Positions 1 to 45,190 of a stretch of 47,749 nt of DNA are shown piece by piece. Under the pieces are notes generated by a model. It worked only from the letters and a program-made list of their open reading frames with translations, was not told the DNA's origin and searched no databases. How positions within the stretch are numbered: position 1 is the stretch's first letter; the number at the start of each line of letters is the position of its first letter. Source of the stretch: a virus; the IMG/VR virus record IMGVR_UViG_3300045988_059296; one strand, 5' to 3'. Made by a program: the position numbers and the translations under genes.

Positions 1-99
1 CGGCGGGCGAAATCGAATTGACGATGCACATTGAGATTTCCAACGCGGACGCTATCTCTTTTATCATCGACCCGAACGTAGTAACGGCAACAAAAAAAG
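1..99. repeat. Terminal direct repeat, copy 1, identical to 47651-47749. The contig closes into a 47650-bp circle or is terminally redundant.
   Basis: Read directly: the first 99 nt (cggcgggcgaaatcgaattg...gtaacggcaacaaaaaaag) recur exactly as the last 99 nt. Confidence 0.97.
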
Positions 100-521: not shown

Positions 522-745
522 CGGAATATGCCTGCCCGCGGCGGGAACTGTCCTGCATCGTCGGAAACCTGTTCGTCGAACTGGAACCACCCTGCGACCA
601 TTGCGCCGCCGGGGACAGCCTGACGATATGCGGAACGACATACGCCGGGACACGGGCAACGCTGACCGTCACCGAATACGGATTTACCTTTGACGGACCG
701 CCGGAGGAAGTCGAACAAATCCGGGAAAGGCGGTGTCTAAAATAG
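515..745 (+). CDS. Small Cys-rich protein (76 aa) directly after the tail fibre gene. Possibly a fibre assembly factor; function unknown.
   Basis: The ATG overlaps the fibre stop codon (ATGTTGA). It occupies the slot of P2 G-type chaperones. No recognisable motif. Confidence 0.4.
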   Translation: MLTEYACPRRELSCIVGNLFVELEPPCDHCAAGDSLTICGTTYAGTRATLTVTEYGFTFDGPPEEVEQIRERRCLK

Positions 746-1182
746 ACCAGCGACAAACCGAACAAAAGCCCGCACAAGAATTTGCAATCATCACGAAAGC
801 GAAAGATTTAGTCAAGCACACGTTTATGATGACAAGCGAACGGAGATTTCCGAAGAAGTACCGCTTCACCATCGTAAACCGCTTGCACGATTTGACGCTT
901 GACATTTTCCAGCACATACAGGAAGCGAACGAACTTGACCTTACAGACCCGCAGGAATACCGCGAACGGCGCTACGAACAGAAAAAGGCGCTGACAGAGT
1001 GCAAGACGGTTCTTTTCCTGATCGAACTTTCCTTTGAAAAGGAACTTATCTCTTCCGAACAATGCGCGGAATGGACCCGGCACGTTATGAACGTGAAGAA
1101 CATGACGGCAAAGTGGAGGAAGCAGGATAGAGAGCGGTTCGCCGCACTACAACAGAATAGAGGAATCACGCCGCGGCGGTAA
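733..1182 (+). CDS. avd: DGR accessory variability determinant (Avd), a four-helix-bundle protein.
   Basis: 149-aa basic helical protein. The stretch FPKKYRFTIVNRLHDLTLDIFQHIQEAN resembles the Avd / 23S-IVS four-helix-bundle family. It lies immediately 5' of the TR and RT and has a GTG start. Confidence 0.8.
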   Translation: MSKIDQRQTEQKPAQEFAIITKAKDLVKHTFMMTSERRFPKKYRFTIVNRLHDLTLDIFQHIQEANELDLTDPQEYRERRYEQKKALTECKTVLFLIELSFEKELISSEQCAEWTRHVMNVKNMTAKWRKQDRERFAALQQNRGITPRR

Positions 1183-1214
1183 CGCACGGCGTTTTTCTTG
1201 GGGTGCGGCTTGTA

Positions 1215-1309
1215 GCGTCCAACTCTTACAACGTCCGCAACGTCAATTCCTCTGGCGCGATGAACTGGAACAACGCTTACAACGGCAACAACGGCGTTCG
1301 CCCGCTTTG
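1215..1309 (+). repeat. DGR template repeat (TR).
   Basis: A non-coding 95-nt segment between avd and the RT. It is collinear with 3321-3415 and, from 1221, with 16406-16494. It holds 23 adenines and 9 AAC triplets in the VR reading frame. Its 3' end is the A-free GC-rich cggcgttcgcccgctttg. Confidence 0.93.
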
Positions 1310-1413
1310 GTGGAAACCGCGATTGAGTAGGCCGAAAGGCTGAAAACAGAGGACCACTATCAAAGGAAGCCGCATCCCTCCGCCGTGGTGACAGCACGAC
1401 GGTAAATACAAGA

Positions 1414-2673
1414 TTGGTGAAGCAAGGTCCACGGAAACCAGCTTCCGCCCGCCGCGGACGCGCGGCGCGGTCCGATGATGACGCGTTGCGTGCGGCGGGA
1501 GCCGCAGACGCGCAAGGCCGATTCTATACACGGCAAGGAGTTTTTTATACGCAAGGCGCAGAATTCGAGCAGGTATATGATTTCGGGAACCTATACGCGG
1601 GGTTCCTGAAAGCACGCAGGGGCAAGCGACACAAACCCAGCGTTGCAAAATTTGAAGCAAATCTTCTTGAAACCCTATGCCTACTTTCGGAAATGCTGAA
1701 AACCAAAACATACCGACCGTCAGATTATTTCGTTTTCAAGGTCTATGAACCGAAAGAACGAATCGTTATGACGAACGCATTCAAAGACAAGGTGGTTCAA
1801 CATTCCCTATGCGACAACATACTTGAACCCGCGTTTTCAAAAGCCTTTATCCGGGACAACTACGCATCGCAGAGCGGGCGCGGAACACATGACGGGTTAT
1901 ACCGCCTTGAAGAATTCATGCGGTCCTACTACTTCACACGCAAGGCGAACGCCGAGCGGGAGCGGCGGGCCGCGGGATTGCCGCCGCCCGGCCCGGAGGA
2001 AGTGCGGCACTATTCGGACGGCTGGGTTTTGAAATGCGACATATCGAAGTATTTCTATTCAATCCAGCATGAACCGTTAAAGCAGATGACGCGGAAGTAC
2101 ATCAAAGACCCGGATATTCTGTGGTTAGTTGACCTTATCGTTGACAGCACGGAAAATCCGGGAATTCCTATCGGCAACCAGACTTCACAATGGTTCGCCG
2201 TCATGTATCTTTCAGGCATGGACCATTTCATAAAAGAAAAGCTGGGTATTCGCTATTATGGGCGGTACATGGACGATTTCTATTTGATACATGAGGACAA
2301 GGCATATTTGCAATACTGCCGGGGCGAGATCGAACAATACGTTGCCCGGCTGGGCCTGCGGATGAACAAGAAAACAAATATTTTCCCGTTGCGGAACGGT
2401 ATTGATTTCTTGGGCTTCCACACCTACTTGACCGAATCGGGCAAAATCATTCGCAAAGTCCGGCGGTCAAGCAAATGTAACGCACAACGCAAATTGAAGA
2501 AACAGCGCGGTCTACTGGACCGGGAGAAAATCAGCCTTTCAGACATTGAACAGTCATACGGAAGTTGGCGGAGCCACGCCGTAAAGGGAAACTGCTATCA
2601 CCTGATACAGAAAACCGACAGTCTGTTTCAAAATCTATTCAAGGAGAGTGAAAAACAATGGCCCAAAGTTTGA
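1414..2673 (+). CDS. DGR-type reverse transcriptase.
   Basis: PIGNQTSQWFAVMYLSGMDHF (the DGR-typical IGxxxSQ motif), a YMDD catalytic box and SQSGRGTHDG. The start is uncertain: there is no in-frame ATG before the conserved core, so TTG 1414 or GTG 1417 are candidates. Confidence 0.9.
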   Translation: MVKQGPRKPASARRGRAARSDDDALRAAGAADAQGRFYTRQGVFYTQGAEFEQVYDFGNLYAGFLKARRGKRHKPSVAKFEANLLETLCLLSEMLKTKTYRPSDYFVFKVYEPKERIVMTNAFKDKVVQHSLCDNILEPAFSKAFIRDNYASQSGRGTHDGLYRLEEFMRSYYFTRKANAERERRAAGLPPPGPEEVRHYSDGWVLKCDISKYFYSIQHEPLKQMTRKYIKDPDILWLVDLIVDSTENPGIPIGNQTSQWFAVMYLSGMDHFIKEKLGIRYYGRYMDDFYLIHEDKAYLQYCRGEIEQYVARLGLRMNKKTNIFPLRNGIDFLGFHTYLTESGKIIRKVRRSSKCNAQRKLKKQRGLLDREKISLSDIEQSYGSWRSHAVKGNCYHLIQKTDSLFQNLFKESEKQWPKV

Positions 2674-4376
2674 ATGCGCTTGCCGTCGGTGCGCTTGTCA
2701 AAGATACAGGCACGCTTTACAACGGTAAGCCGATCATTTGGAAAATCGCCGACAAGGGACACACGGGCTACCCGTCCGGCGCTGTGACCCTGATTACGGA
2801 GCGCATTATTTCGCTGAAATGCTTTGACGCTATCGAATCCGGCAACAGCGACGGCAACCGCCGCAGTTACGGCAATAACCGTTGGACCCTTTCTAACGTG
2901 CGGCAATGGCTGAACAGTCAGGCCGCCGCCGGGAAGTGGTACAGCGCCCAGCATGGCGCAGACGCGGCCCCGACGAATGCGAACGTATGGAGCAACTACA
3001 ACGAATACGACGCGGAAGCGGGCTTTCTTGCGGGCTTCTCCGCGAACTTCATTGCGGCCCTGCTGACTACGACCCACACCGTAGGCAAGGCGACCGTAGA
3101 CGGCGGCGGTACGGAGAGTTGCGCCGACAAAATCTTCCTTGCGACCTGTACGGAAGTCGGCTTGTCCGGCGACGTGACCGCGGGAAGCAAGCTGGCCTTG
3201 TTCAGCGACGACAATTCCCGTCTTGCCTACCCCACGGCGGAAGCCGTGAGCAAGAGCGAATACACGAACGGCAGTTTCAACGTAAATTCGCCGCGGTATT
3301 GGTGGCTTGCCGACGCTTACGCGTCCAGCTCTTACATCGTCCGCCACGTCAATTCCTCTGGCGCGGTGATCTGGAGCGACGCTTACATCGGCTACCTCGG
3401 CGTTCGCCCGCTTTGTAATTTGTCCTCTGGAATCTTGGTATCTGATAGCCCGGATTCCGACGGAGCATACACGATCATTTGGAACCGCGCCCCCTCGAAG
3501 CCCTCTTCCATCACGGTTCCGTCCAGCGTGCGCGGCGGCGAAAGCCTGTCTATCAGTTGGGGGGCTTCCACGGACGAAGACGGCAATCTTTCCGGCTATA
3601 TCCTCGAACGGCAGGTCAACGGCGGCGCATGGGCGCAGGTATACAAGGGCATCAACCGCAGTTACACAGACGCAATCACGTTCGGCTGGACCTCTGTTGC
3701 GTACCGCGTCAAGGCGTATGACAGCGCGGGCGCGGAATCGGCGTATCAGACCAGCGCGACGCGGACGGTGGTAAACAACCATGCGCCCGTTATCAGCGGC
3801 ACAGATTCCAACTTGGGAACGAAGACCGCCGCGTTCGCGCAGAGTTACAGCGTAACGGACGAAGACAGCGGGCAGACCTTGACCGTGACAGAGTACATCG
3901 ACGGCACGCAGAAGCGTTCCTACACCGCGACAAGCGGACAGACCTATTCATTCAACATCACCGCCGCAGAGTGGGTGAAGCTGTTGAACGGGTCCCATAC
4001 GCTGAAAATCGTTGCGGCGGACAACTACGGCGGAAGCGCGACCCGGACGTATACGTTCACGAAAAATGAAACGGAAATCGAACTTACGCTTGCTACCCCG
4101 CTTACTGCCGACGATATGGTGACAAAGGGTATCATGTCTGTCGTGCGTCAAATTCCAGCAGGTGCAAAATTCACCGTGGAAGTCTGCAACAACGGCAACG
4201 ACGCTTCCCCGACGTGGGAGGACGTGACGCAGAACGTCGTAAGCGGAAGTAAGTTCTTCCTTTCCAACACAACCAAAACGGCGAGCGCTTGGGGCTACAA
4301 TTTCCGCATCAAGGTAAAGCGCGGAACGGCAACGGGCGATTGCTTCATTACGTCTGCGGGAGGTAACTTTGAATGA
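2658..4376 (+). CDS. DGR target protein 1 (572 aa). It has an N-terminal variable ligand-binding domain (YWWL...GVRPLC, C-type-lectin-like / DUF6273-like), an FN3 domain, an Ig-like domain and a C-terminal beta domain. Probably a receptor-binding tail protein.
   Basis: Contains VR1. The FN3-like segment is PSKPSSITVP...WGASTDEDGNLSGYILERQVNGGAW...YRVKAYDSAG. RBS AAGGAG precedes the start. The gene sits between the tail fibre and the lysis cassette. Confidence 0.8.
   Translation: MAQSLNALAVGALVKDTGTLYNGKPIIWKIADKGHTGYPSGAVTLITERIISLKCFDAIESGNSDGNRRSYGNNRWTLSNVRQWLNSQAAAGKWYSAQHGADAAPTNANVWSNYNEYDAEAGFLAGFSANFIAALLTTTHTVGKATVDGGGTESCADKIFLATCTEVGLSGDVTAGSKLALFSDDNSRLAYPTAEAVSKSEYTNGSFNVNSPRYWWLADAYASSSYIVRHVNSSGAVIWSDAYIGYLGVRPLCNLSSGILVSDSPDSDGAYTIIWNRAPSKPSSITVPSSVRGGESLSISWGASTDEDGNLSGYILERQVNGGAWAQVYKGINRSYTDAITFGWTSVAYRVKAYDSAGAESAYQTSATRTVVNNHAPVISGTDSNLGTKTAAFAQSYSVTDEDSGQTLTVTEYIDGTQKRSYTATSGQTYSFNITAAEWVKLLNGSHTLKIVAADNYGGSATRTYTFTKNETEIELTLATPLTADDMVTKGIMSVVRQIPAGAKFTVEVCNNGNDASPTWEDVTQNVVSGSKFFLSNTTKTASAWGYNFRIKVKRGTATGDCFITSAGGNFE
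3321..3415 (+). repeat. DGR variable repeat VR1.
   Basis: 95/95 collinear with the TR and differs at 11 positions, all adenines in the TR. Encodes ASSSYIVRHVNSSGAVIWSDAYIGYLGVRPLC. Confidence 0.93.
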
Positions 4377-10401: not shown

Positions 10402-11094
10402 TCAGAACTGTTCGTATGTATAGCCGCCGTTTTCGTCCAGCGTGATAGCGCCGTAATCTTCAAGAATAGAACCGTCGGTATCTTGCTTCCCGTATGTACC
10501 GACATAGTACATAGAACCGGGGAAACAAATACCCGTGCCGTCATCACAAAGAATTGCAACCCAGTTGTAGCCGCTGTCCTTGACGACGGTTTCAACGAAT
10601 TCTTTGTAGTTTTCTTCCGTAATGGATTGAAGCTGTGCTTTCGTAATGCGGATATAGGCGTATTCACCGATTTTGTCGCCGGAACCAGTTTTCACGTCCT
10701 TTACAGTTAAGTCATAGTCCATCAAGACGTTGTGTTTGTGATATTCAGGGTACAGCATATCACGCCCAGAATAGACGGTTTCAACCGCACCGTCAGAAAG
10801 TGTAACGTCGAGGGATGAACCGCCGTAATAGACGGTATACGCGCCCTTGCTTTCGGAAATGCTTGTAATCTTACTATCAAGGCCGCAGGAAGTCAGAACG
10901 ATAAAGACTTCATCGGCCTGTTCGGGAGTGATTTTCATATCCGCCCGAATGGTGTTCATGGCATCGGGGTAAAAATCATACTGCGCCGTCAGTTCCTCCG
11001 ATTTGGGCGTGTCCAAATCGACAAGAGCGCCGCCGCAGGCGGAGAGGGACGCGGCAAGCACCGCCGCAAGGACAAGAGATAGAACCTTTTTCAT
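10402..11094 (-). CDS. Secreted lipoprotein (230 aa), a candidate superinfection-exclusion or surface-modifying factor.
   Basis: Signal peptide MKKVLSLVLAAVLAASLSAC with lipobox LSAC. RBS GGAGGA. Own promoter. Located in the lysogeny region. Confidence 0.8.
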   Translation of the reverse strand: MKKVLSLVLAAVLAASLSACGGALVDLDTPKSEELTAQYDFYPDAMNTIRADMKITPEQADEVFIVLTSCGLDSKITSISESKGAYTVYYGGSSLDVTLSDGAVETVYSGRDMLYPEYHKHNVLMDYDLTVKDVKTGSGDKIGEYAYIRITKAQLQSITEENYKEFVETVVKDSGYNWVAILCDDGTGICFPGSMYYVGTYGKQDTDGSILEDYGAITLDENGGYTYEQF

Positions 11095-11177
11095 GTGAAA
11101 TCCTCCGTTCTGCCGCCCAGTGTCCGGGCGGCTTGCGTTATTTTCAAAGGCCGGGACCATTGCTTTTTCTGGATTCT

Positions 11178-11243
11178 GACCTTTAACACAATTATCAATG
11201 CTTATTGTGCTAAAGTCAAGAAAAATGCAGACCTTTAACACAA
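11178..11243. promoter_or_regulatory. Overlapping divergent promoters with operator-like repeats.
   Basis: Leftward promoter TTGACT (11219-11214) N17 GATAAT (11196-11191). Rightward extended -10 TGcTAAAGT (11208-11216). Direct repeats gacctttaacacaa at 11178-11191 and 11230-11243. Inverted partner attgtgctaaag at 11204-11215. Confidence 0.55.
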
Positions 11244-11259
11244 AAGGAGGAATCGGCGG

Positions 11260-11505
11260 TTGAAGATATACGACTACAAGGGACGAAAGAACCTTTGCGG
11301 AAATCGCGTCAAAGAAGCACGCGCCCGGCTGAATATCACGCAAACAGACCTTGCGGCGCGTCTGCAAGTTGCAGGAATTACAATGGAGCGGGACAGCGTA
11401 AGCAGAATTGAAATCGGGACCCGCTTTGTGACTGATTATGAACTTGCGGTGCTTGCGAAGATACTTGGCGTATCTATGGAATGGCTGACAGAAAATGAGC
11501 AATAG
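11260..11505 (+). CDS. XRE-family helix-turn-helix transcriptional regulator (81 aa), a Cro/CI-type switch protein.
   Basis: RVKEARARLNITQTDLAARLQVAGITMERDSVSRIEIGTR is a classic HTH_3 pattern. TTG start 9 nt after AAAGGAGG. Confidence 0.85.
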   Translation: MKIYDYKGRKNLCGNRVKEARARLNITQTDLAARLQVAGITMERDSVSRIEIGTRFVTDYELAVLAKILGVSMEWLTENEQ

Positions 11506-11576: not shown

Positions 11577-11609
11577 AAACCCGCCCGGCTTGATAGCTTG
11601 GGCGGGTTT
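11577..11609 (+). terminator. Leader hairpin, a possible attenuator, between the promoter and the transposase RBS.
   Basis: aaacccgccc-N13-gggcgggttt forms a perfect 10-bp stem, followed by cgcatttt and then GGGAGG. Confidence 0.45.
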
Positions 11610-11630
11610 CGCATTTTGGGAGGTTATAGC

Positions 11631-12680
11631 ATGGGGCATTGTTTCAGTCATTTACAGCTCACAGATCGGCGGAAAATCGAATACGGTTTGAACCGCGGCG
11701 ATACACCGAAGCAGATCGCGGCGGAACTTCATGTTCATGTCAGCACGATTTATAGAGAAATCAAACGCGCCCGTTGGGAGCATCTGGACGGCGATACATG
11801 GATTATGGAAGACCGCTATAACCCGGACGGAGCAGAAAAAAGATACCGTGAAAATCTCGCGGCGAAAGGTGCGCCGTTGAAAATCGGAAACGACCATGAA
11901 CTTGCTGACTATTTGGAACGAAAGGTCATCGAAGAAGACCGTTCGCCTGCCGCGGCCCTTGCTGACATAACGATAGAGGGCCGGACATTCAAAACATCTA
12001 TTTGTGTCAGCACTTTTTACGGTTACATTGAAAAGGGTGTGTTTCTGAACCTGACGAATAAAGACTTACCAGAAAAGCCGAAGCGGAAGCGTCCATATCA
12101 CAAAGTTAAAACGACGAAACGCGCACCGCGCGGAGAGAGCATAGAAAAACGCCCGGAAGTGATTAACCAGAGAATCACTTTCGGGCATTGGGAAATGGAT
12201 ACTGTATATTCTGGCAAGGACGGTTCGTGCGCCCTGTTGGTGCTGACGGAACGCCTATCACGAAAAGAAATTATAGAGAAAATGCGCGACAGAACCGCAA
12301 TCAGCACCGTTCGCGCCTTGAACCGTATTGAACGGAGGTTCGGGGCGCTGTTTCCGCGCGTGTTCCAGACAATCACCGTAGACAACGGCGGGGAGTTCTC
12401 CGACGTGAAGAGCCTTGAACGGTCTATCCTACGGAAAGGCAGACGAACCAAAATGTATTATTGCCACCCGTACACAAGTTGCGAACGCGGGTCAAATGAG
12501 TGTGCAAACAAAATGATTCGGCGGAAATTCCCGAAAGGGACTGATTTCAATAAGGTCAGTCGAGCGGAAGTAAAGAAAGCCGAAGAATGGATGAACAACT
12601 ATCCGCGTGAAATATTGGGCTGGAAAACTGCTGAAATCGTGTTTGCGGAATGCCTTGAAGAATTGGCGCGGGAAGCCTGA
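11631..12680 (+). CDS. IS30-family DDE transposase/integrase (349 aa).
   Basis: N-terminal HTH (IAAELHVHVSTIYREIKR) and DDE core (GHWEMDTV, ITVDNGGEF, ERGSNECANKMIRR). RBS GGGAGG. No flanking terminal inverted repeats found. Confidence 0.9.
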   Translation: MGHCFSHLQLTDRRKIEYGLNRGDTPKQIAAELHVHVSTIYREIKRARWEHLDGDTWIMEDRYNPDGAEKRYRENLAAKGAPLKIGNDHELADYLERKVIEEDRSPAAALADITIEGRTFKTSICVSTFYGYIEKGVFLNLTNKDLPEKPKRKRPYHKVKTTKRAPRGESIEKRPEVINQRITFGHWEMDTVYSGKDGSCALLVLTERLSRKEIIEKMRDRTAISTVRALNRIERRFGALFPRVFQTITVDNGGEFSDVKSLERSILRKGRRTKMYYCHPYTSCERGSNECANKMIRRKFPKGTDFNKVSRAEVKKAEEWMNNYPREILGWKTAEIVFAECLEELAREA

Positions 12681-12843: not shown

Positions 12844-13674
12844 ATGAAGCACGTTTCTTTTGAAGAGTACGAAGCCGCGAAAGCTGAAATCATCGGTGGA
12901 GTTCACTACATCGAGAAATCCACGATGGAAAACGACGTGATTCACAAGACCTATTCCACCGAAGAGAACGGCACGTTCTACGAGGTGAACGACAAAGGCC
13001 GCGTCGAGTTTTGGAGCGACAAGCATTCCGAAAGCCGGATTTACGACGAAAACGAGCGGGCCACCGAAACGGACAAAAAGGCGGGGCCGGGCTACGGCGA
13101 TTTGCTGGCGGAGAGAATCAGAGCGAACGCCGACGCGTCGAAGCTGACCGACTTTGAAAAGTTCGTCCTTGACCGCGGCTATATGTTCGCAACGGAAGCC
13201 GACTTGAAAGCCGGGTACGACCGCAAATGGAAAGCGAACCACGGAATCGCCCTAACGCTGGAAGAGTTCACGGCGGAAGCGGAATGCAGGGGCCGCAAGC
13301 TGGACACCTTGCAGGAGGTTTACCGGGTCATTTCGGAACACATCAAGGCCGGGCGGCTGACTGCGGGTGCGCTGATGGACTATGCGTATTACGCATGGTG
13401 TCTGAGAAAGCCGGAAGCAATCATCGCATATCAGATCGGAACGGGAAAAGACACGCCGGTTCACCAGAAATGGGCGGTCAATAACTGTTCGCAGGAAATC
13501 ACGGAAGCGGAAGCCCGCGTTGCAGTTTGCGAAGAATTCGGGTTCGAGGTTAGCCGGGTCCGCATCATCGGGACCCCGTACTACGACGCGACCGACTGGA
13601 ATTTCATTCGGTTTGACTGCGCCGGGCGGTGCTGGTTGATGAAAAATGCTTCCCTCTATCCCGTCTACGAATAA
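12844..13674 (+). CDS. Hypothetical protein (276 aa), first gene of the early operon.
   Basis: RBS AAGGAGG. No recognisable motif. Confidence 0.75.
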   Translation: MKHVSFEEYEAAKAEIIGGVHYIEKSTMENDVIHKTYSTEENGTFYEVNDKGRVEFWSDKHSESRIYDENERATETDKKAGPGYGDLLAERIRANADASKLTDFEKFVLDRGYMFATEADLKAGYDRKWKANHGIALTLEEFTAEAECRGRKLDTLQEVYRVISEHIKAGRLTAGALMDYAYYAWCLRKPEAIIAYQIGTGKDTPVHQKWAVNNCSQEITEAEARVAVCEEFGFEVSRVRIIGTPYYDATDWNFIRFDCAGRCWLMKNASLYPVYE

Positions 13675-13680
13675 AAAAGC

Positions 13681-13710
13681 GGAGGGGCGGCGAAAGCCTG
13701 CCGCCCCTCC
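13681..13710. other. GC-rich hairpin with an 11-bp perfect stem. There is no T-run on the + strand; an A-run lies upstream.
   Basis: ggaggggcggc-gaaagcct-gccgcccctcc. Confidence 0.6.
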
Positions 13711-13727
13711 CGGAAAGGTGGTAAGGA

Positions 13728-14141
13728 ATGGGCTGTATTTTTAGGCCGGAAGCGCTTTCGTGGGAGGACATCGACGGCGGGCGCGGCGAAATGACGATGG
13801 AAGCAATCAGGAACTTCATAAGCGAATATTGCTATCCTGACGAATACGCCGACTATGGCGACGATGAAGAACTACCAAACGAACTTGTTTTCTTTGCGGA
13901 AATGTGGGAAAGGCTGGACGGTTACTACACGCCGATTTCAGACAGTTTCCAAACGGCGGCGGTTCTTTCGCTGATTGACGGCGCATTTTTCGACAGCATG
14001 GCGGCGGGCAGAATTGCCGAAAAGCTGACAAAATCGGCAACAAAGCCGGATTTGGTGCGGATTATTACGCACGTCGCAAGCGCCTATTGCTGGTATGTGT
14101 CGCTGAAAGCGCGTGTCGAAAAAGCAAAAGGCGAAGAATAA
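13728..14141 (+). CDS. Hypothetical acidic protein (137 aa).
   Basis: RBS AAAGGTGG. Track ORF. Confidence 0.65.
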   Translation: MGCIFRPEALSWEDIDGGRGEMTMEAIRNFISEYCYPDEYADYGDDEELPNELVFFAEMWERLDGYYTPISDSFQTAAVLSLIDGAFFDSMAAGRIAEKLTKSATKPDLVRIITHVASAYCWYVSLKARVEKAKGEE

Positions 14142-14170
14142 GCCGCAACGGTGAAAAGAAACGGGGTGAA

Positions 14171-14422
14171 ATGGTGCGGCAGTACAGATATATAGACTTT
14201 CAGGACCGCAAGGAGATTTCCACGCGATACCTGAACGGCGACCGGGTGGCGGACATTGCCGACGGGCTGGGCGTGACAACGGCTACCGTCTACCGGGAGT
14301 TGAAACGTGGCGAAACGGGCGGGCTTGACCGCAACCAGCGGAGAGCATACAACCCCGTTCTTGCACAACAGCGCGTGCAAGAGAACTTCAAACGCCGCGG
14401 CAAAACCGCGGTCAATTCGTAA
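14171..14422 (+). CDS. Stand-alone IS30-type N-terminal HTH protein (83 aa), a paralogue of the N-terminus of the transposase at 11631.
   Basis: DRKEISTRYLNGDRVADIADGLGVTTATVYRELKRG...YNPVLAQQRVQEN aligns by eye with DRRKIEYGLNRGDTPKQIAAELHVHVSTIYREIKRA...YNPDGAEKRYREN. Confidence 0.65.
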   Translation: MVRQYRYIDFQDRKEISTRYLNGDRVADIADGLGVTTATVYRELKRGETGGLDRNQRRAYNPVLAQQRVQENFKRRGKTAVNS

Positions 14423-14435
14423 AGGAGGTTTCGCG

Positions 14436-14660
14436 GTGAACAATTTTGAAGAAATCACGAAGAACCCGGAAACGCTGGGCGCTTTCTTACGGGGCCTGCC
14501 CGTCATTGAAGCGCCGTGGGACGAAGAATTCCAGCGGAAGTATTGCGCCGGGTGCGGGAAAGTCAGTTGTGACGATGGTAGCCCTTGCCCGTATGAGGAC
14601 AAGCGAAACAATCCGCTTTGGTGGCTGTCGCAGGAGAGCGGAAAGGCGGCGGAGGTATGA
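14436..14660 (+). CDS. Hypothetical small Cys-containing protein (74 aa).
   Basis: GTG start 7 nt after AAAGGAGG. Confidence 0.55.
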   Translation: MNNFEEITKNPETLGAFLRGLPVIEAPWDEEFQRKYCAGCGKVSCDDGSPCPYEDKRNNPLWWLSQESGKAAEV

Positions 14661-15034
14661 GCCGAAAGGAACAGCAACACGGCGGGGTCAAGCTGACGGC
14701 GAAGACGGCCCGCACCCTCGCAATGCAGGAATTCGGGACCGCCCGCGGTCTGACGAAAAGTACGTCATTCGTCGGCGCGTACTTCATGGAGTTTGGAAAC
14801 CTGCGTATCGAAATTTGCGCGGACGCGGCTTGTATTGCTGTTCGCGTGGTTCTGGCCCACGGTACGGGTTCCAGCGTGAAATACTTTGACCCGGACACCC
14901 TGCAAGAGAACTTCAAGGCTATCGACAAACACCGTGAAGACGAAGACCGCGCCATTATCAGTGATTGGGTCAACCTGAACGGCCCGGAATATTGCCGGAA
15001 GCAGGTTGAAGCGATTTGGAAACAAGGAGGTTGA
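14657..15034 (+). CDS. Hypothetical protein (125 aa).
   Basis: ATGA start/stop overlap. RBS GGAGG. Confidence 0.65.
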   Translation: MSRKEQQHGGVKLTAKTARTLAMQEFGTARGLTKSTSFVGAYFMEFGNLRIEICADAACIAVRVVLAHGTGSSVKYFDPDTLQENFKAIDKHREDEDRAIISDWVNLNGPEYCRKQVEAIWKQGG

Positions 15035-15038
15035 AAAC

Positions 15039-15326
15039 GTGGAGAGAAACGGGAAGCACATCGCAAAAGAAGCAACAAACGGAATTATTTACGACAGCGC
15101 CGGACAGATCGTACACAATGGGCTGTTGGAGATTTGCCCGTTCTGCGGCGAAATGAACAACCATTTTGGAAGCGGCGGAAGCGTGAACATTTGGACGGTT
15201 GGCGCGATTGAACGCAGGGAGTGTACGAAGTGCCGAAAGCAGTTCCACAAAATCAGCCTGACGGTTCCGCCCGATGAAACACCGGAAGCGTTCTATTTGC
15301 GGGTCATAAAGGCGGTGACAGCATGA
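15039..15326 (+). CDS. Hypothetical zinc-ribbon protein (95 aa).
   Basis: GTG start after AAGGAGG. CPFC...CTKC motif. Confidence 0.55.
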   Translation: MERNGKHIAKEATNGIIYDSAGQIVHNGLLEICPFCGEMNNHFGSGGSVNIWTVGAIERRECTKCRKQFHKISLTVPPDETPEAFYLRVIKAVTA

Positions 15327-15502
15327 AACGTCAATTCTGCTTGCCCTGCTTCCTCGAAATCAAGAAAGCCGGGAAACACGATATTGAGCGTGTCCGCGGC
15401 GGCGTGAATATGAAAATCACCTGTTGGCGGTGCAAGCGCCGTCGTTTCGGGGCCGAATACGAGATTTCAAGGAAAGGCGGTGTGTCCCGTGACAACGGCT
15501 GA
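15323..15502 (+). CDS. Hypothetical 59-aa zinc-ribbon protein; below the ORF-track cut-off.
   Basis: Hand translation: MKRQFCLPCFLEIKK...KITCWRCKRRRFG. ATGA coupling to the upstream gene. Confidence 0.45.
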   Translation: MKRQFCLPCFLEIKKAGKHDIERVRGGVNMKITCWRCKRRRFGAEYEISRKGGVSRDNG

Positions 15503-15695
15503 TTTGAAGCGGGCTTTCATGGACGAACGCCCGGTACGGTACAACGGCATCACCTACCAGCGAGTAACAGCGGTGATTTACCGCAAGACCCCGGACAAAA
15601 CCGGGTTGCTGGTACAAGGTGAACTGCTGGACAAGAACGGACGTGCCGTTATGATCGCGGCGGCGGAGCGAATCAAAGTGGAGGAACCGAAATGA
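15480..15695 (+). CDS. Hypothetical protein (about 70 aa). The start is GTG 15480 or GTG 15489.
   Basis: Track ORF that fills a gap in a tightly packed operon. Confidence 0.55.
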   Translation: MCPVTTADLKRAFMDERPVRYNGITYQRVTAVIYRKTPDKTGLLVQGELLDKNGRAVMIAAAERIKVEEPK

Positions 15696-16003
15696 CACAA
15701 GAGATTATCACAATCACCGTTGAAGCCGGGCAAATGACCGCCCGGCGGAAGTCCCGGAAAATCGCCCAGCGCCGCCCGGTCCCCGTGTGGGCTATCGTGA
15801 AGTATGCGGCCCTGACGATTGCCGGAATTATGCTGTTTCGTGAGGGCGCGGCCCGTGCGCTGGCCTACCGGGGCTATTTCGCCGTCGGCGGAGAGGTTTT
15901 CGCCCTCTTCCTCCCGGTTTTCTATTACTGCCTTTCACGGACGGTCCGGGACCTTATCACGGACATTAAGAACGGCTTCAAGCCGGAATATGAGGAGGAC
16001 TAA
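15692..16003 (+). CDS. Small membrane protein (103 aa, 2 TM segments) directly upstream of DGR target 2.
   Basis: VWAIVKYAALTIAGIMLF and VFALFLPVFYYCL segments. ATGA coupling upstream, and 3 nt from the next start. Confidence 0.65.
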   Translation: MTQEIITITVEAGQMTARRKSRKIAQRRPVPVWAIVKYAALTIAGIMLFREGAARALAYRGYFAVGGEVFALFLPVFYYCLSRTVRDLITDIKNGFKPEYEED

Positions 16004-16006
16004 ACC

Positions 16007-16744
16007 ATGAAGAAAATTTCGCAGATCGAAACGGGCGGGCGCTTCCTGTATGGCGGAATTGAGTGGGTCAAGCTGTACGCAGGCGACGGAACCGTTGCGA
16101 TTTCCGCCGAACCCGTCTTTGAACGCGCTTTCGACGAAAACAACAAGAACGATTGGCGTTCTTCTTCCATGCGCCGCGAACTGAACGGCGCGTTCCTCGA
16201 CGCGCTGGTTGCAGAGGGCGCGGACCGGGCGGCGTTCCTCGATTGGGAAAGCGACCTGACCGCCGATGACGGCATGACCGACTACGGGACCGCCACCGAC
16301 AAAATCGCTTTGCTGTCGGACAAACTGTATAGAATGTTCCGCGGCATTATCCCGCGCGTGGACGCGTGGTGCTGGAACCTGACCCCGTGGACGTGCGACC
16401 CCGAATACTCTTACAGCGTCCGCTACGTACATTCCTCTGGCGCGATGGACTGGGGCTACGCTTACAGCGGCTACCTCGGCGTTCGCCCGCTTTGCTATCT
16501 GAAATCCGAAATCTTGGTATCTGTCCCCGGAGAGGACGACGAAGAGAAAAACGTTGAAGTCGCCGAAGAGGACCGCGCACAGCTTGTTCTTATCGCAAGC
16601 GACAGAATTTTGAATGCACTGAATGAATACCCCGTGGAAGTTTGGGGCGAAGCGCTGGGCGCGGCTGTGGCTTCTCTGTTCACGTCGAAGCAGGACGCGG
16701 CGCAGATCGCGCAGGAAGACAAAGACAAAGCGGCGGAGGTCTGA
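16007..16744 (+). CDS. DGR target protein 2 (245 aa). It has the same WWL/GVRP-type variable domain as target 1, followed by an acidic C-terminal tail, and is encoded in the early/non-structural region.
   Basis: Contains VR2. It shares domain landmarks with target 1 (W..S.MRRELNGAFL, ...HSSGAMDWGYAYSGYLGVRPLCYL). RBS GAGGAGG. No signal peptide. Confidence 0.8.
   Translation: MKKISQIETGGRFLYGGIEWVKLYAGDGTVAISAEPVFERAFDENNKNDWRSSSMRRELNGAFLDALVAEGADRAAFLDWESDLTADDGMTDYGTATDKIALLSDKLYRMFRGIIPRVDAWCWNLTPWTCDPEYSYSVRYVHSSGAMDWGYAYSGYLGVRPLCYLKSEILVSVPGEDDEEKNVEVAEEDRAQLVLIASDRILNALNEYPVEVWGEALGAAVASLFTSKQDAAQIAQEDKDKAAEV
16406..16494 (+). repeat. DGR variable repeat VR2, remote from the DGR cassette.
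   Basis: 89 nt collinear with TR 1221-1309. 12 substitutions fall at TR adenines and there is one C-to-A change (TR 1244). Confidence 0.9.
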
Positions 16745-23588: not shown

Positions 23589-24365
23589 GTGAAGACCATA
23601 TCAATTATCAACCTAAAAGGCGGCGTTGCAAAGACGCTGACCGCTGACAGCATGGCCCACGTCCTCGCAACGTTCCACAACAAGCGTGTTTTGCTTGTGG
23701 ACAACGACAAGCAGGGCAACACGTCAAAGGCATTCGGGGTCCATTCCTACGATGACAAGAGCATTTCGGACGTGCTGACTGCCCGGCGGCTGGACCCGCG
23801 GGAGGTCATCAAGAAGACCCGGTTCGAGAATATCGACGTAATGCCTGCGAACATGACCTTGATTCGGGCGAACATGGAAGTCCTGATGGACAGCACCCGC
23901 CCCCAACAAACGCGCCTGCGGTCCGCCCTGAACGCGATTGCGGAAGAAAACTTTTATGATTTCTGCATCATCGACAACGCCCCGGACATCAACATTTCAA
24001 CGATAAATGCCCTTGTCGCGTCCGACGACGTGATTATTCCCATAAAGATTGACAAGTACGCCTTTGACGGGCTGGAAGAACTGAAAGAACAAATCGAGGA
24101 CACACGGGACGACCTGAACCCGCGCTTGCGCCTTGCCGGGTGCTTGATTACCTGCTTTATCCGCGCCGACGCAGAGAAGCAGGGCGAAGCGTGGTTGCGG
24201 TCCCGCCCGGAATACCCCGTCTTTGACACCCGCATTCGATATTCGGATAAAGTCACCGAAAGCACCTTTTCGGAAATCCCTATCGTGGAGTACAGCCGCC
24301 GGAGCGGAACCGCGATGGACTATATCGCATTCGTTCAGGAATACTTACGGAGGGGTAAACAATGA
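23589..24365 (+). CDS. parA: ParA/Soj-type partition ATPase.
   Basis: Deviant Walker A in NLKGGVAKTLTA, plus LLVDNDKQGN. GTG start after AAAGGAGG. Confidence 0.9.
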   Translation: MKTISIINLKGGVAKTLTADSMAHVLATFHNKRVLLVDNDKQGNTSKAFGVHSYDDKSISDVLTARRLDPREVIKKTRFENIDVMPANMTLIRANMEVLMDSTRPQQTRLRSALNAIAEENFYDFCIIDNAPDINISTINALVASDDVIIPIKIDKYAFDGLEELKEQIEDTRDDLNPRLRLAGCLITCFIRADAEKQGEAWLRSRPEYPVFDTRIRYSDKVTESTFSEIPIVEYSRRSGTAMDYIAFVQEYLRRGKQ

Positions 24366-24574
24366 CGGAGAAAACGGCGGTCCCGGAATACTGCCGGGGC
24401 GGGAAGAAAATCCGCGCGTATCAATGCGGGATTTGCGACCGACTGGACGTTGACGACATTTCCGACAAGCGGTTCTGCCGCGCCGGGTATTGGCCCGGTT
24501 GCGGCGACCCCGACGGTTGCCGGGAAGCATTCAAACCGATAACAGGCCGCGGGCGCATCGGCGTTCACCGCTAA
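24362..24574 (+). CDS. Hypothetical Cys-rich protein (70 aa) between parA and parB.
   Basis: ATGA coupling with parA. Confidence 0.55.
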   Translation: MTEKTAVPEYCRGGKKIRAYQCGICDRLDVDDISDKRFCRAGYWPGCGDPDGCREAFKPITGRGRIGVHR

Positions 24575-24577
24575 AAT

Positions 24578-24590
24578 GTCCGATTCGGAC
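24578..24590. promoter_or_regulatory. Palindrome GTCCGATTCGGAC immediately upstream of parB, a candidate centromere/parS-like or operator site.
   Basis: Read directly. It is the same 13-mer as at 8046-8058 and 39620-39632. Confidence 0.5.
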
Positions 24591-24605
24591 GGAAAGGGGC
24601 TATCT

Positions 24606-25787
24606 ATGGGAAGATTTAATTTGAACCAGATTTTGAGTGACACGTCAAAGGCGGCGGCGGGCGGCGGGGGTGCAAAGCCCCGCCCCTCTGAAAGCCGCTA
24701 TGAGAAATTGAGCGTCTTTGACCTTGTACCGTCGGAGGACAATTTCTATTCCATGCGGGAAATCGGGGAACTGAAAGCGGCAATCGAAATCGCCGGGAAA
24801 GTTCTTCAAAACCTTGTCGTCGTTCCGCTGGGCGACGGCAAGTACAAGGTCATTGCCGGGCATCGCCGCCGCCTTGCTTCTATCGAACTTGTGAACGATG
24901 GGAAGCCAGAATACGAATTCGTTCCATGCGTCATCGAACCGACAGAGGAAGCGGCGGACGAACAGGAAATACGCGACGGGCTGGACCTGATCGTTACCAA
25001 CTCGCAGAGAGAAAAGACCGCATGGGACAAAATCGAAGAGGTTCGCTATCTGCGGGAGGTTTTGGAGAAAGCGAAAACAAAGCCCCGGTTCGTCGAACTG
25101 TTGCGCCGCATCGTCGAAAAGACGTTTGAAGACGGAGAGTTACAGACGGACGGGACCCGCGATTTTATCGCAAAGGTGCTTCATACCAGCACAACGCAGA
25201 TTGGACGATATGACACCATCATTCGCCATTTGTCCCCGGAATTCACGGAGGAACTGAAAGCGGACCGCATCAACCTTTCGACCGCCTACGAATTGGCGGG
25301 CCTGCCTGCGGAGAACCAGAACGCCGCCTTTAAGGAATATCACCTGACCGGGGCAATTTCTATCAAGGCCGCGCGGGAATGGAAACGTCCTGCCCTGCCT
25401 GCACCGCCCGCAGAGGACACCGCCACACCTACGCAGGCAGAACGCCCACAGAAAGAGCGGGAACCCGTAGTCGAGCGGGACAAAGTGCCGGACACGCAGG
25501 CCACGCCGCCGTATAGCGCCGCTGTGGAGCGGGACACCGCAGACGGGACGCAGGACACGAAGCCGACCGAAAGCACCCAGCAGAGCGCACCACGCCGCCC
25601 GCAGGCTACCAGAAGTAGCGAATGCGGGATTTGCCCGTATTGCGGGGCGAAGTTTGACGCGGCAAAAGTTATCGAATACAACATTCGCGGCGCGGCGGAG
25701 GGAAAGCCGCACACCTGCCAACATTGCGGACAGCGGGTGAAAATCTTTTGTTCGGTTTCTTATTTCTGTTCCCCGGCGGAAGAGTGA
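24606..25787 (+). CDS. parB: ParB-like partition/nuclease-domain protein with a C-terminal zinc ribbon.
   Basis: LQNLVVVPLGDGKYKVIAGHRRRLAS is a ParB N-terminal box. C-terminal CGICPYC...CQHC. ATG 24606 follows GGAAAGGGG; the alternative start is 24576. Confidence 0.85.
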   Translation: MGRFNLNQILSDTSKAAAGGGGAKPRPSESRYEKLSVFDLVPSEDNFYSMREIGELKAAIEIAGKVLQNLVVVPLGDGKYKVIAGHRRRLASIELVNDGKPEYEFVPCVIEPTEEAADEQEIRDGLDLIVTNSQREKTAWDKIEEVRYLREVLEKAKTKPRFVELLRRIVEKTFEDGELQTDGTRDFIAKVLHTSTTQIGRYDTIIRHLSPEFTEELKADRINLSTAYELAGLPAENQNAAFKEYHLTGAISIKAAREWKRPALPAPPAEDTATPTQAERPQKEREPVVERDKVPDTQATPPYSAAVERDTADGTQDTKPTESTQQSAPRRPQATRSSECGICPYCGAKFDAAKVIEYNIRGAAEGKPHTCQHCGQRVKIFCSVSYFCSPAEE

Positions 25788-44773: not shown

Positions 44774-44776
44774 ACA

Positions 44777-45178: not shown

Positions 45179-45190
45179 GGAGGGCGGGAA

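What the first reader, a model, noticed from the sequence alone, without database searches (positions are those of the whole stretch)
16007..16744. Second, remote DGR target in the early non-structural region (VR2 at 16406-16494)
VR2 aligns with TR 1221-1309 over 89 nt and has 12 substitutions at TR adenines. It shares the same A-free 3' block. It lies about 13 kb from the cassette, in a 245-aa protein whose N-terminal region shares landmarks with target 1 (W..S.MRRELN..F; HSSGAMDW...YLGVRPLC). The gene sits among early/replication genes, not virion genes. It is tightly coupled to a 2-TM membrane protein (15692-16003), lacks a signal peptide and ends in an acidic tail. A phage that diversifies a probably intracellular or membrane-associated early protein is unusual. 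Speculatively, the protein could be a hypervariable binder aimed at variable host factors. Examples would be a host defence or surface component, superinfection exclusion, or an adaptable counter-defence. It would then not be a receptor-binding protein.
Basis: partly seen in the sequence, partly recalled or inferred. Interest (0 to 1): 0.85.

Follow-up and report, generated by a model that had tools for sequence, protein, structure and literature searches.

The report
Second, remote phage DGR target gene
A gut phage's mutagenic retroelement rewrites a second small binding-protein gene that lies among its early/replication genes as well as a tail-region gene; the feature is real and active in nature, but the same two-target layout has already been published for related phages, and what the second protein does is still unknown.

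Summary
VR2 (16406-16494) matches TR (1221-1309) over 89 nt. There are 13 mismatches: 12 at TR adenines and one synonymous C>A. VR2 ends in the same 17-nt A-free block as TR and VR1.

VR2 is active, not decayed. In 22 near-identical IMG/VR genomes all 23 TR-adenine positions vary, against 4 of 66 other positions. TR is invariant in close relatives. In diverged lineages VR2 carries its own TR's lineage-specific non-A changes. The protein's 90% cluster holds 15,370 distinct sequences, whereas the neighbouring 2-TM protein's exact sequence recurs on at least 1000 contigs.

The 245-aa product is a DUF6273 domain followed by an acidic helical tail (AF2 pLDDT 93.6). It lies between early genes and the replication initiator of a complete 47.65-kb myovirus of Oscillospiraceae.

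It is not new in kind. It is homologous to the published "tgt2"/"small DGR target" of phages nd4, nd12, Lelie and Toutatis, which is paired with a "tentaclin" first target. A "non-structural" second DGR target was already proposed for Quimbyvirus.

Function is unresolved. The literature assumes a receptor binder. The early-module position in four lineages and N-terminal fusions (SaV-like DUF3310, DUF4406) make me lean towards a non-virion role, at about 45%.

The parts
733..1182 (+). Avd-like accessory gene of the DGR cassette (149 aa)
   Evidence: Weak Pfam hits to bAvd (1.2e-4) and 23S_rRNA_IVP (7.7e-4), both below the gathering score. It sits directly upstream of TR, as in canonical cassettes.
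1215..1309 (+). Template repeat (TR). Positions 1215-1309 pair with VR1 and 1221-1309 with VR2. There are 23 adenines in 1221-1309.
   Evidence: TR is 100% invariant in 12 close relatives, while VR1 and VR2 differ in every genome.
1293..1309 (+). A-free GC-rich 3' block of TR (GGCGTTCGCCCGCTTTG), identical in VR1 and VR2; IMH-like
   Evidence: exactly three copies in the window, at 1293, 3399 and 16478.
1414..2673 (+). DGR reverse transcriptase (the true start is probably downstream of the TTG at 1414)
   Evidence: Pfam RVT_1, 4.7e-13. The DGR-type motif IGNQTSQ and YMDD are present.
2658..4376 (+). Target 1 (572 aa), tentaclin-type: N-terminal DUF6273 domain plus a C-terminal extension
   Evidence: Pfam DUF6273, 9e-31. 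phrog_10993 'Hoc-like', 1.4e-244 over the full length.
3321..3415 (+). VR1
   Evidence: 11 mismatches to TR, all at adenines. It varies at 6-16 A positions in relatives.
3432..3444 (+). ATCTTGGTATCTG motif 17-29 nt downstream of VR1 (candidate cis element)
15692..16003 (+). 103-aa protein with two predicted TM segments, translationally adjacent to target 2
   Evidence: Hydrophobic segments at 30-48 and 63-81. It is found directly upstream of target 2 in nearly every clade locus that reaches far enough upstream, at 50-100% identity. It is absent in nd4, nd12 and Toutatis. No Pfam, PHROG or PADLOC hit.
16007..16744 (+). Target 2 (245 aa): DUF6273 globular domain (1-175), acidic linker, helical hairpin (186-244)
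   Evidence: phrog_9958, 7e-64, and Pfam DUF6273, 7e-7. AF2 model with mean pLDDT 93.6. Homologous to nd4 and nd12 tgt2 at 41-43% identity.
16406..16494 (+). VR2, encoding residues 134-163 (beta-hairpin 137-151 plus the following loop and strand)
16511..16523 (+). ATCTTGGTATCTG motif 17-29 nt downstream of VR2, at the same offset as behind VR1

Best explanation
Gene 16007-16744 is a genuine, currently active second ('trans') target of the phage's single DGR.

Diversification mechanism. This follows established DGR biology; only its sequence signatures are shown here. The TR-containing RNA (1215-1309 plus spacer) is reverse-transcribed by the RT (1414-2673), presumably with the Avd-like protein. 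Adenines are copied unfaithfully. The cDNA then replaces either VR1 in the tail-region 'tentaclin' gene or VR2, 13-15 kb away. Both VRs are marked by the same 17-nt A-free 3' block. Both are also followed, at the same offset, by a conserved ATCTTGGTATCTG motif that may help define a target.

Effect on the protein. Homing rewrites up to 13 codons (residues 134-157): 10 AAY, 2 TAC and 1 ATG. These lie on a surface beta-hairpin of a small DUF6273 (C-type-lectin-like) domain. No stop codon can be created. About 3e13 variants are possible, and the scaffold and C-terminal helical hairpin stay conserved.

Identity. The protein is a diversifiable ligand binder of the published 'tgt2 / small DGR target' type.

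Where it acts is inferred, not shown. I consider an off-virion role most likely, at about 45%. In that reading it is made from the early operon and acts in the infected cell or at the membrane, possibly with the co-translated 2-TM protein, on a variable host factor. The literature's view, a virion-borne or lysis-released receptor binder, I put at about 30%.
For: Adenine-specific TR/VR2 pattern:
- 12 of 13 mismatches fall at TR adenines, P = 8.8e-7, and the one exception is synonymous.
- TR is in frame with both VRs, and no stop codon can arise.

Activity in nature:
- In 23 aligned genomes (the window plus 22 IMG/VR relatives) all 23 TR-A columns of VR2 vary, against 4 of 66 non-A columns. The rest of the gene is about 95% conserved.
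- TR is identical in 12 close relatives, while VR1 differs in each.
- In two lineages with diverged TRs, VR2 carries that TR's lineage-specific non-A substitutions. In two others this holds over the 3' part only.
- The tgt2 cluster holds 15,370 distinct sequences and the target 1 cluster 18,891. The adjacent 2-TM protein's exact sequence is seen on at least 1000 contigs.
- The RT carries the DGR motif IGNQTSQ.

Fold and family:
- AF2 model with pLDDT 93.6.
- Foldseek matches the DUF6273 domain of 9qa6 at 4e-8, and 25 phage proteins at E <= 1e-3, many of them named DUF6273.
- Usage at the variable codons is Tyr 24%, Asn 17%, Gly 13%, Ser 12% and Asp 11%.
- Homology to the published tgt2 of nd4 and nd12 and to gp24 of Toutatis/Lelie.

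For an off-virion role:
- In four lineages the gene sits among DNA-metabolism and early genes: the window, nd4 (RNase_T exonuclease, LPD15), nd12 (Dam, MazG-like) and Toutatis (methylases, replication initiator).
- nd12_tgt2 carries an N-terminal DUF3310 domain (2.5e-16). This is the domain of lactococcal SaV, an early, toxic protein tied to AbiV abortive infection.
- Another family member is fused to DUF4406 (7.6e-25).
- No tail-attachment domain is present.
Against: - Nothing here measures expression timing, localisation or virion content.
- DUF6273 domains with known or inferred context are extracellular: the NTD of a secreted, sortase-anchored IgA peptidase, tentaclins, and BFVD hits named receptor-binding or tail proteins.
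- Almost all characterised phage DGR targets are receptor binders, and all three papers on this architecture favour that reading.
- The fusion proteins are few and could partly be gene-calling artefacts of adjacent genes.
- The 2-TM neighbour is clade-specific.
- No PADLOC or anti-defence signal.
- The Avd assignment is below the Pfam threshold.
- No hairpin or cruciform lies downstream of the VRs, so target recognition is not explained by the BPP-1 model.
Confidence: 0.85

Rival explanations
1. Target 2 is a virion-associated or lysis-released receptor-binding protein or adhesin, functionally like Bordetella phage Mtd. It happens to be encoded outside the structural module. Its C-terminal helical hairpin docks it onto the tail or baseplate, and the DGR widens host or environmental binding.
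For: - All three papers on the homologous proteins propose this.
- The same TR and the same hairpin are used in the tail-region target 1.
- DUF6273 occurs in extracellular proteins and in phage proteins named tail or receptor-binding.
- The binding-site-like Tyr/Ser/Gly/Asp usage fits, and the conserved C-terminal helices could be an anchor.
Against: - The gene sits in the early/replication module in four diverged lineages.
- It has no beta-prism, beta-sandwich or other known attachment domain, and Foldseek finds no Mtd.
- Family members are fused to cytoplasmic early-type domains, DUF3310/SaV and DUF4406.
- The C-terminal tail is not conserved in sequence between lineages.
Confidence: 0.3
2. 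Target 2 works with the co-translated 2-TM protein as a membrane-associated module, for example superinfection exclusion or control of the entry or exit of other phages. The variable face recognises changing competitor or host envelope components from the cytoplasmic side.
For: - A 3-nt gap or 4-nt overlap separates the two ORFs, and the Shine-Dalgarno sequence lies inside the upstream ORF.
- The pair is conserved in nearly every clade locus down to about 60% identity.
- nd12 has a 1-TM ORF immediately downstream of its tgt2.
Against: - The 2-TM gene is missing next to tgt2 in nd4 and Toutatis, so it is not required by the family.
- Neither protein has any family hit in PADLOC, Pfam or PHROGs that points to exclusion.
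- Synteny within one clade may simply be inherited.
Confidence: 0.1
3. VR2 is a decayed, inactive relic, or a paralogous duplication of the target-1 C-lec segment, and is no longer rewritten by the DGR.
For: One non-A mismatch is present, and the repeat is shorter at its 5' end than VR1 in this genome.
Against: - Every TR-A position varies between near-identical genomes, while non-A positions are conserved.
- VR2 follows lineage-specific TR changes.
- The cluster holds 15,370 distinct sequences.
- The non-A mismatch is synonymous and private to this genome.
Confidence: 0.01

Closest known systems
tgt2 of gut phages nd4 and nd12 (Baykov et al. 2023, PMC10743442); the same protein type as the 'small DGR target' of Faecalibacterium phages Lelie and CP11 (Gulyaeva et al. 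2024, PMC11792537) and as FP_Toutatis gp24 (Egorov et al. 2024, bioRxiv 10.1101/2024.10.15.618418)
   Same: - Sequence homology: 41-43% identity to nd4 and nd12, and 31% to Toutatis and Lelie.
- A small single DUF6273 domain with flanking helices.
- The VR lies at the C-terminal end of the domain and encodes a surface beta-hairpin.
- It is paired with a large tentaclin-type first target next to the RT.
- It lies kilobases from the cassette.
- Both VRs vary between related genomes.
   Different: - A different phage lineage: a 47.65-kb myovirus of Oscillospiraceae, with tgt2 identity of 43% or less to the published examples. CP11 is only about 36 kb.
- A clade-specific 2-TM gene is coupled upstream.
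- It has its own C-terminal helical hairpin, not alignable to those of nd4, nd12 or Toutatis.
- It lacks the DUF3310 N-terminal domain of nd12_tgt2.
Quimbyvirus second DGR target ORF 84 (Benler et al. 2021, PMC8008677)
   Same: A second C-lec DGR target distal to the structural module, among methyltransferase and nuclease genes.
   Different: It comes from a Bacteroides phage family and lies on the opposite strand. No sequence relationship was tested here.
Mtd of Bordetella phage BPP-1
   Same: A DGR-diversified C-lec-type binding surface at the C-terminal end, AAC-rich TR codons, and a GC-rich IMH-like block at the VR 3' end.
   Different: - Mtd is 381 aa, with an N-terminal beta-prism and beta-sandwich that trimerise and attach to the tail fibre. 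Target 2 has neither.
- Mtd is encoded next to the cassette and tail genes.
- Foldseek found no Mtd match.
- No downstream cruciform is present here.
DUF6273 N-terminal domain of Thomasclavelia ramosa IgA peptidase ThomasA (PDB 9qa6; PMC12402451)
   Same: The only solved structure with a significant match: Foldseek E 4.4e-8 and profile E 1e-7.
   Different: It is part of a secreted, sortase-anchored multidomain peptidase. It is not DGR-diversified, and sequence identity is 19%.
SaV (DUF3310) of lactococcal phages sk1/p2
   Same: Relevant only through the nd12 homologue, whose N-terminus is a DUF3310 domain. SaV is an early, toxic protein linked to AbiV abortive infection.
   Different: The window's protein has no DUF3310 domain.

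Membership tests
DGR variable repeat / target gene | The TR/VR pair differs (almost) only at TR adenines | tested here: met
   12 of 13 mismatches fall at A, P = 8.8e-7, and the exception is synonymous.
DGR variable repeat / target gene | Cognate DGR-type RT with the [I/L]GxxxSQ motif next to TR | tested here: met
   RVT_1 at 4.7e-13. IGNQTSQ at residue 253 and YMDD at residue 285. TR ends 104 nt upstream of the ORF.
DGR variable repeat / target gene | Accessory Avd protein | tested here: inconclusive
   The 149-aa ORF upstream of TR hits bAvd at 1.2e-4 with 22.9 bits, below the gathering score of 40.
DGR variable repeat / target gene | Conserved A-poor, GC-rich element (IMH-like) at the 3' end of VR, shared with TR | tested here: met
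   A 17-nt identical block is present in TR, VR1 and VR2.
DGR variable repeat / target gene | Hairpin or cruciform downstream of VR (BPP-1 type) | tested here: not met
   DNA folds of the 72 nt after each VR are no better than shuffles, z = -0.6 and +0.8. This feature is not universal among DGRs.
DGR variable repeat / target gene | Adenine-specific variability of VR with an invariant TR among related genomes | tested here: met
   23 of 23 A columns vary, against 4 of 66 non-A columns. TR is identical in 12 relatives. VR2 co-varies with its own TR across lineages.
DGR variable repeat / target gene | Experimental RT-dependent mutagenic homing | not testable with these tools
   This needs an induction or homing assay, or deep read data.
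tgt2 / small DGR target (Baykov 2023; Gulyaeva 2024) | Sequence homology to nd4_tgt2 and nd12_tgt2 | tested here: met
   tblastn gives 43% identity at 1e-34 (nd12) and 41% at 2e-31 (nd4), on the CDSs of 297 and 234 aa that the paper calls tgt2. phrog_9958 matches at 7e-64.
tgt2 / small DGR target (Baykov 2023; Gulyaeva 2024) | Single globular DUF6273 domain flanked by helices, with the VR forming a beta-hairpin | tested here: met
   AF2 pLDDT 93.6. Strands 137-141 and 147-151 lie within the VR-encoded residues 134-163. Helices span 186-205 and 210-244.
tgt2 / small DGR target (Baykov 2023; Gulyaeva 2024) | Co-occurrence with a tentaclin-type target 1 served by the same TR | tested here: met
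   Target 1 matches phrog_10993 over its full length at 1.4e-244 and has an N-terminal DUF6273 domain. VR1 and VR2 both match the one TR. The C-terminal Ig consensus of tentaclins was not checked.
C-type lectin fold | Structural similarity to canonical CTLDs or to DGR C-lec proteins (Mtd, TvpA) | tested here: inconclusive
Mtd-like tail-fibre receptor-binding protein | N-terminal trimerisation and attachment domains, and a gene in the tail module | tested here: not met
   No such domains appear in the model. The gene lies more than 10 kb from the nearest structural or packaging gene (terminase small subunit, from 26856) and next to the replication initiator.
Known anti-phage defence or counter-defence families (PADLOC) | Profile match | tested here: not met
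   No hit for target 2, the 2-TM protein or 7 of the 8 other neighbouring ORFs tested. One neighbour has a marginal mad1 hit at 0.0058.

The most novel reading that the evidence does not exclude
The tgt2 family is not a virion protein. It is an early-expressed, intracellular, DGR-diversified binder: in effect a phage 'antibody' aimed at variable host proteins such as abortive-infection or other defence components, or at host-takeover targets. The conserved C-terminal helices, or fused modules such as the SaV-like DUF3310 domain in nd12 and DUF4406 elsewhere, would supply the effector or docking function. If so, one retroelement adapts both the extracellular (tentaclin) and the intracellular interface of the phage with its host.
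Probability: 0.3. Interest if true: 0.85.

Novelty: new member of a known kind. Interest (0 to 1): 0.45.

Why it matters
DGRs are the only known natural machines for targeted protein hypermutation in prokaryotes. In phages they are understood almost entirely as host-range devices acting on tail proteins.

This very prevalent Oscillospiraceae phage clade keeps a second target in its early/replication module, and that target is diversified as intensely as the first. The neighbouring gene's exact product is on at least 1000 public contigs.

The published interpretation of this protein type as a receptor binder has never been tested. If the protein proves to be off-virion, targeted hypermutation would extend to intracellular phage-host conflict.

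The conserved ATCTTGGTATCTG motif behind both VRs is a concrete, testable candidate for how this DGR clade recognises a remote target.

Tried and rejected
- Hairpin or cruciform downstream of VR1 and VR2: DNA folding of 72-nt flanks was no better than shuffles. I make no claim of a BPP-1-type cruciform.
- PADLOC scan of target 2, the 2-TM protein and eight neighbours: nothing meaningful.
- First AF2 run with a shallow alignment of 28 sequences at 66% identity or more: pLDDT 48, unusable. It was replaced by a 106-sequence alignment of 50%-cluster representatives, which gave pLDDT 93.6.
- Foldseek against canonical C-type lectins or Mtd: no significant match. C-lec membership is left inconclusive.
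- Disulfide test for an extracellular role: Cys is frequent at variable positions 136 and 153, but the two do not co-occur (Fisher p = 0.23). Odd Cys counts are common. This is uninformative.
- P0010, a 384-aa 'tgt2 + Tail_P2_I' fusion, looked like a link to tail proteins. It is the junction of a roughly 30-kb deletion or mis-join in one contig, so it is not evidence of function.
- Promoter and terminator scans around the gene gave only consensus-level matches: a promoter-like site at 12714 and none specific to target 2. I draw no conclusion on timing.
- Identity with prophage CP11 of PMC11792537 was considered and rejected, because CP11 is only about 36 kb.
- A literature search for virion proteomics of these phages found none.
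Full report
1. THE OBSERVATION

An ungapped alignment places TR 1221-1309 against 16406-16494, 89 nt. There are 13 mismatches. Twelve fall on the 23 adenines of the TR, a binomial probability of 8.8e-7. The thirteenth, C1244 to A at 16429, is a synonymous GTC>GTA change private to this genome.

The 17-nt A-free block GGCGTTCGCCCGCTTTG occurs exactly three times in the window, at the 3' ends of TR, VR1 and VR2. TR is in frame with both VRs. It holds 10 AAY, 2 TAC and 1 ATG codon. No adenine substitution can create a stop codon, and about 3e13 protein variants are possible.

The cassette is Avd-like ORF (733-1182; weak, sub-threshold Pfam hit), TR, RT (1414-2673; RVT_1, with the motifs IGNQTSQ and YMDD), then target 1 (2658-4376).

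The ORF 16007-16744 encodes 245 aa and starts 3 nt after the stop of a 103-aa ORF. A GAGGAGG Shine-Dalgarno sequence lies inside that upstream ORF. The upstream product has two hydrophobic segments, and target 2 has none. The last 72 residues of target 2 have pI 4.05.

2. IS VR2 ALIVE?

I fetched 54 IMG/VR loci encoding relatives and aligned the gene from 22 of them, at 86-97% amino-acid identity, with the window.

- Variation is concentrated in VR2. All 23 TR-adenine columns vary, most with three or four bases. Only 4 of the 66 non-A columns vary, each in one or two genomes.
- From 70 RT loci, TR is 100% identical in 12 close relatives. VR1 differs from TR at 6-16 adenine positions in each, with at most one non-A difference.
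- I examined nine contigs that carry both the RT and target 2. Four of them have a diverged TR. In two of these, VR2 carries the lineage-specific non-A substitutions of its own TR. For example, in contig 3300029325_000188 VR2 matches all seven non-A differences of that TR, with one other mismatch. In the other two, 5'-end non-A mismatches remain. This shows continuing copying from TR into VR2.
- In the 15-billion-protein collection, target 2 belongs to a 90%-identity cluster of 15,370 distinct sequences, each seen on 1-3 contigs. Target 1's cluster has 18,891. The exact sequence of the adjacent 2-TM protein was seen on at least 1000 contigs.

VR2 is as hypervariable in nature as VR1.

3. THE GENOME AND THE NEIGHBOURHOOD

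The window is a complete circular genome with a 99-nt terminal overlap, so 47,650 bp are unique. The map from PHROG and Pfam:

| Coordinates | Feature |
|---|---|
| 26856 | terminase small subunit |
| 28425 | terminase large subunit |
| 30511 | portal |
| 33567 | major head protein |
| 36562 | tail sheath |
| 39903 | tape measure |
| 43383-47277 | baseplate |
| across the window ends | tail fibre |
| 733-4376 | DGR cassette |
| 4373 | tail-fibre-like gene |
| 6037 | endolysin |
| 7640 | holin-like gene |
| 10402-11502 | the only minus-strand gene among those annotated here |
| 11598 | transposase-like gene |
| 12844-15695 | small unannotated ORFs |
| 15692 | 2-TM ORF |
| 16007 | target 2 |
| 16952 | replication initiator (phrog_3584, 1.3e-78) |
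| 18995 | RecU-like gene |
| 21236 | methyltransferase |
| 23589-25787 | ParA/ParB-like genes |

Target 2 therefore lies in the early/replication module, more than 10 kb from the nearest structural or packaging gene. Prophage relatives occur in Oscillospiraceae and allied Clostridia: Acutalibacter, Oscillibacter, Dysosmobacter and Neglectibacter.

4. THE PROTEIN

Pfam detects only the C-terminal part of DUF6273 (7e-7). PHROGs matches phrog_9958, of unknown function, nearly end to end (7e-64).

An HMM search of 1.84 billion cluster representatives found 1,568 related clusters at E <= 1e-3. Most of the 150 best hits listed are 170-300 aa. Of 106 members scanned, 93 hit DUF6273.

With that diverse alignment AF2 gives a confident model, mean pLDDT 93.6. 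It shows a globular alpha/beta domain at 1-175, an acidic linker, and a helical hairpin at 186-244. The VR-encoded residues 134-163 include the beta-hairpin 137-151.

At the ten Asn-templated codons the 121 close homologues use Tyr 24%, Asn 17%, Gly 13%, Ser 12% and Asp 11%. Thr, Ala and Pro are almost absent. This fits both a binding surface and the known scarcity of A>C at the second adenine of AAC codons. Outside the VR the scaffold is about 89-90% conserved.

5. WHAT IS ALREADY KNOWN

A tblastn search of GenBank phages hit ten records. The annotated CDSs under the hits are exactly the proteins published as second DGR targets.

- nd4_tgt2 (234 aa) and nd12_tgt2 (about 294 aa) were described by Baykov et al. 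2023. Those authors named the large first target 'tentaclin' and described tgt2 as a single C-lec domain flanked by helices, with a VR-encoded hairpin.
- Gulyaeva et al. [quoted passage not shown] Both VRs of CP11 vary among cognate genomes.
- Egorov et al. [quoted passage not shown]
- All three papers favour a receptor-binding role, without experiment.
- Benler et al. 2021 described in Quimbyvirus a second C-lec target distal to the structural module. [quoted passage not shown]

The window's phage is a different lineage. Its tgt2 is at most 43% identical to the published ones, and CP11 is only about 36 kb. This is a new member of a known kind.

6. WHERE DOES THE PROTEIN ACT?

Nothing here measures this, so what follows is inference.

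For a virion or extracellular role:
- DUF6273 is found in tentaclins, in a secreted peptidase and in phage proteins named tail or receptor-binding.
- Phage DGR targets are typically receptor binders.
- The same TR-encoded hairpin serves target 1.

For an off-virion role:
- The gene lies in the early/DNA-metabolism module in four lineages whose tgt2 proteins share only 24-43% identity (nd4 and nd12 genomes are 31% identical at the nucleotide level per PMC10743442). These are the window, nd4 (between an LPD15 protein and an RNase_T exonuclease), nd12 (after Dam and a MazG-like gene) and Toutatis (after methylases and before the replication initiator).
- The model has no tail-attachment domain.
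- nd12_tgt2 carries an N-terminal DUF3310 domain (2.5e-16). That is the domain of lactococcal SaV, an early, toxic protein that determines sensitivity to the AbiV abortive-infection system.
- Another family representative is fused to DUF4406 (7.6e-25), and one to a MazG-like segment.
- None of the N-terminal extensions I inspected looks like a signal peptide or a tail-fibre module.

Points that do not help:
- The 2-TM neighbour is conserved in nearly every locus of this clade but absent in the other lineages. It cannot be a general partner.
- A Cys co-variation test for disulfides was uninformative.

My estimates are: off-virion about 45% (of which membrane-associated with the 2-TM protein about 10%), virion-borne or released receptor binder about 30%, and other or unknown for the remainder.

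7. A SIDE OBSERVATION ON MECHANISM

The sequence ATCTTGGTATCTG lies 17-29 nt downstream of both VR1 (3432-3444) and VR2 (16511-16523), and not downstream of TR. It encodes I-L-V-S, the last strand of the domain, but uses uncommon codons: TTG is 20% of Leu codons, GTA 11% of Val and TCT 12% of Ser. The joint probability given ILVS is about 0.0016.

The motif is almost invariant at the DNA level in 20 distinct VR1 flanks and 16 distinct VR2 flanks. These come from lineages whose RTs are 58-99% identical, plus nd12, while adjacent synonymous sites vary. No hairpin is predicted there. It is a candidate cis element for recognising a target, or alternatively a trace of gene conversion between the two targets. 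I did not test either possibility.

8. VERDICT

The DGR-target interpretation is correct. The claim of unusualness is overstated in view of the 2021-2024 literature. The functional speculation remains open, with some new indirect support.

Interest is 0.45. The most novel reading not excluded, an intracellular hypervariable binder, has a probability of about 0.3 and would deserve an interest of about 0.85 if true.

Noticed in passing
window 3432-3444 and 16511-16523; also L003 and the VR1/VR2 flanks of the IMG/VR and genome-derived loci matched: The motif ATCTTGGTATCTG lies at the same offset (17-29 nt) behind both VRs but not behind TR. It uses uncommon codons for I-L-V-S (joint P about 0.0016). 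It is nearly invariant at the DNA level across lineages with 58-99% RT identity, while neighbouring synonymous sites vary. It may be a cis element for DGR target recognition. Exceptions are ATTTCGGTATCT (L027, L030; L042 has ATTTCGGTACCT) and ATCTTTGTATCT (the Acutalibacter-type group, e.g. L131-L133, L136-L138, L039, L041, L043).
   Followed up: partly
L058 (Logan SRR22463324) and L010/L060 (IMGVR_UViG_3300029574_000041): Two contigs from different samples join the early region directly to the tail and DGR region, skipping about 30 kb of replication, head and tail genes. The junctions differ: window 16723->46834 and 17635->47157. In L058 this creates a 384-aa 'target 2 + Tail_P2_I' fusion ORF (P0010). 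These may be deletion derivatives that keep the DGR and both targets, or they may be assembly chimeras.
   Followed up: partly
window 1-99 and 47651-47749: The first and last 99 nt are identical. The window is therefore a circularly closed assembly of a complete genome of about 47,650 bp, and the tail-fibre gene runs across the ends.
   Followed up: yes
window 16400-16406 versus L005, L007, L009-L015 and others: The 5' boundary of VR2 is polymorphic. In 18 of 23 genomes the homology to TR extends 6 nt further (GCGTCCA). The window and four others (L004, L006, L008, L016) have CCCGAAT there instead.
   Followed up: partly
L003:7725-8618 (nd12_tgt2); P0205, P0214, P0129, P0139, P0186: Family members carry varied additions. 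They include N-terminal DUF3310 (SaV-like), DUF4406, a MazG-like segment, Zn-ribbon-like extensions and a tandem duplication of the domain (P0129, 411 aa). There is also a C-terminal Ig domain (P0186) and one 6,979-aa protein with 19 matching stretches (P0139).
   Followed up: partly
window 11598-12680 and 23589-25787: No tyrosine or serine integrase was seen among the ORFs annotated. A transposase-like protein (phrog_4646, 4.8e-131) sits where an integrase would be expected; nd12 has an IS30-family transposase in a similar place. ParA-like and ParB-like genes are also present. IMG/VR contigs of 68-89 kb suggest that relatives are integrated prophages.
   Followed up: no
VR-encoded residues 134-157 in 121 homologues (P0001-P0120 plus the window): Thr, Ala and Pro, which need A>C at the second codon position of AAC, are almost absent (0.1-0.3% against a neutral 6%). 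Tyr reaches 24%. Cys replaces the templated Tyr at residues 136 and 153 in about 18% of sequences each, without co-variation.
   Followed up: partly
window 15692-16003: The exact 103-aa 2-TM protein sequence occurs on at least 1000 public contigs and is annotated 'MULTISPECIES: hypothetical protein [Oscillospiraceae]' (WP_373223005.1). This shows that the phage clade is very widespread in gut datasets.
   Followed up: no
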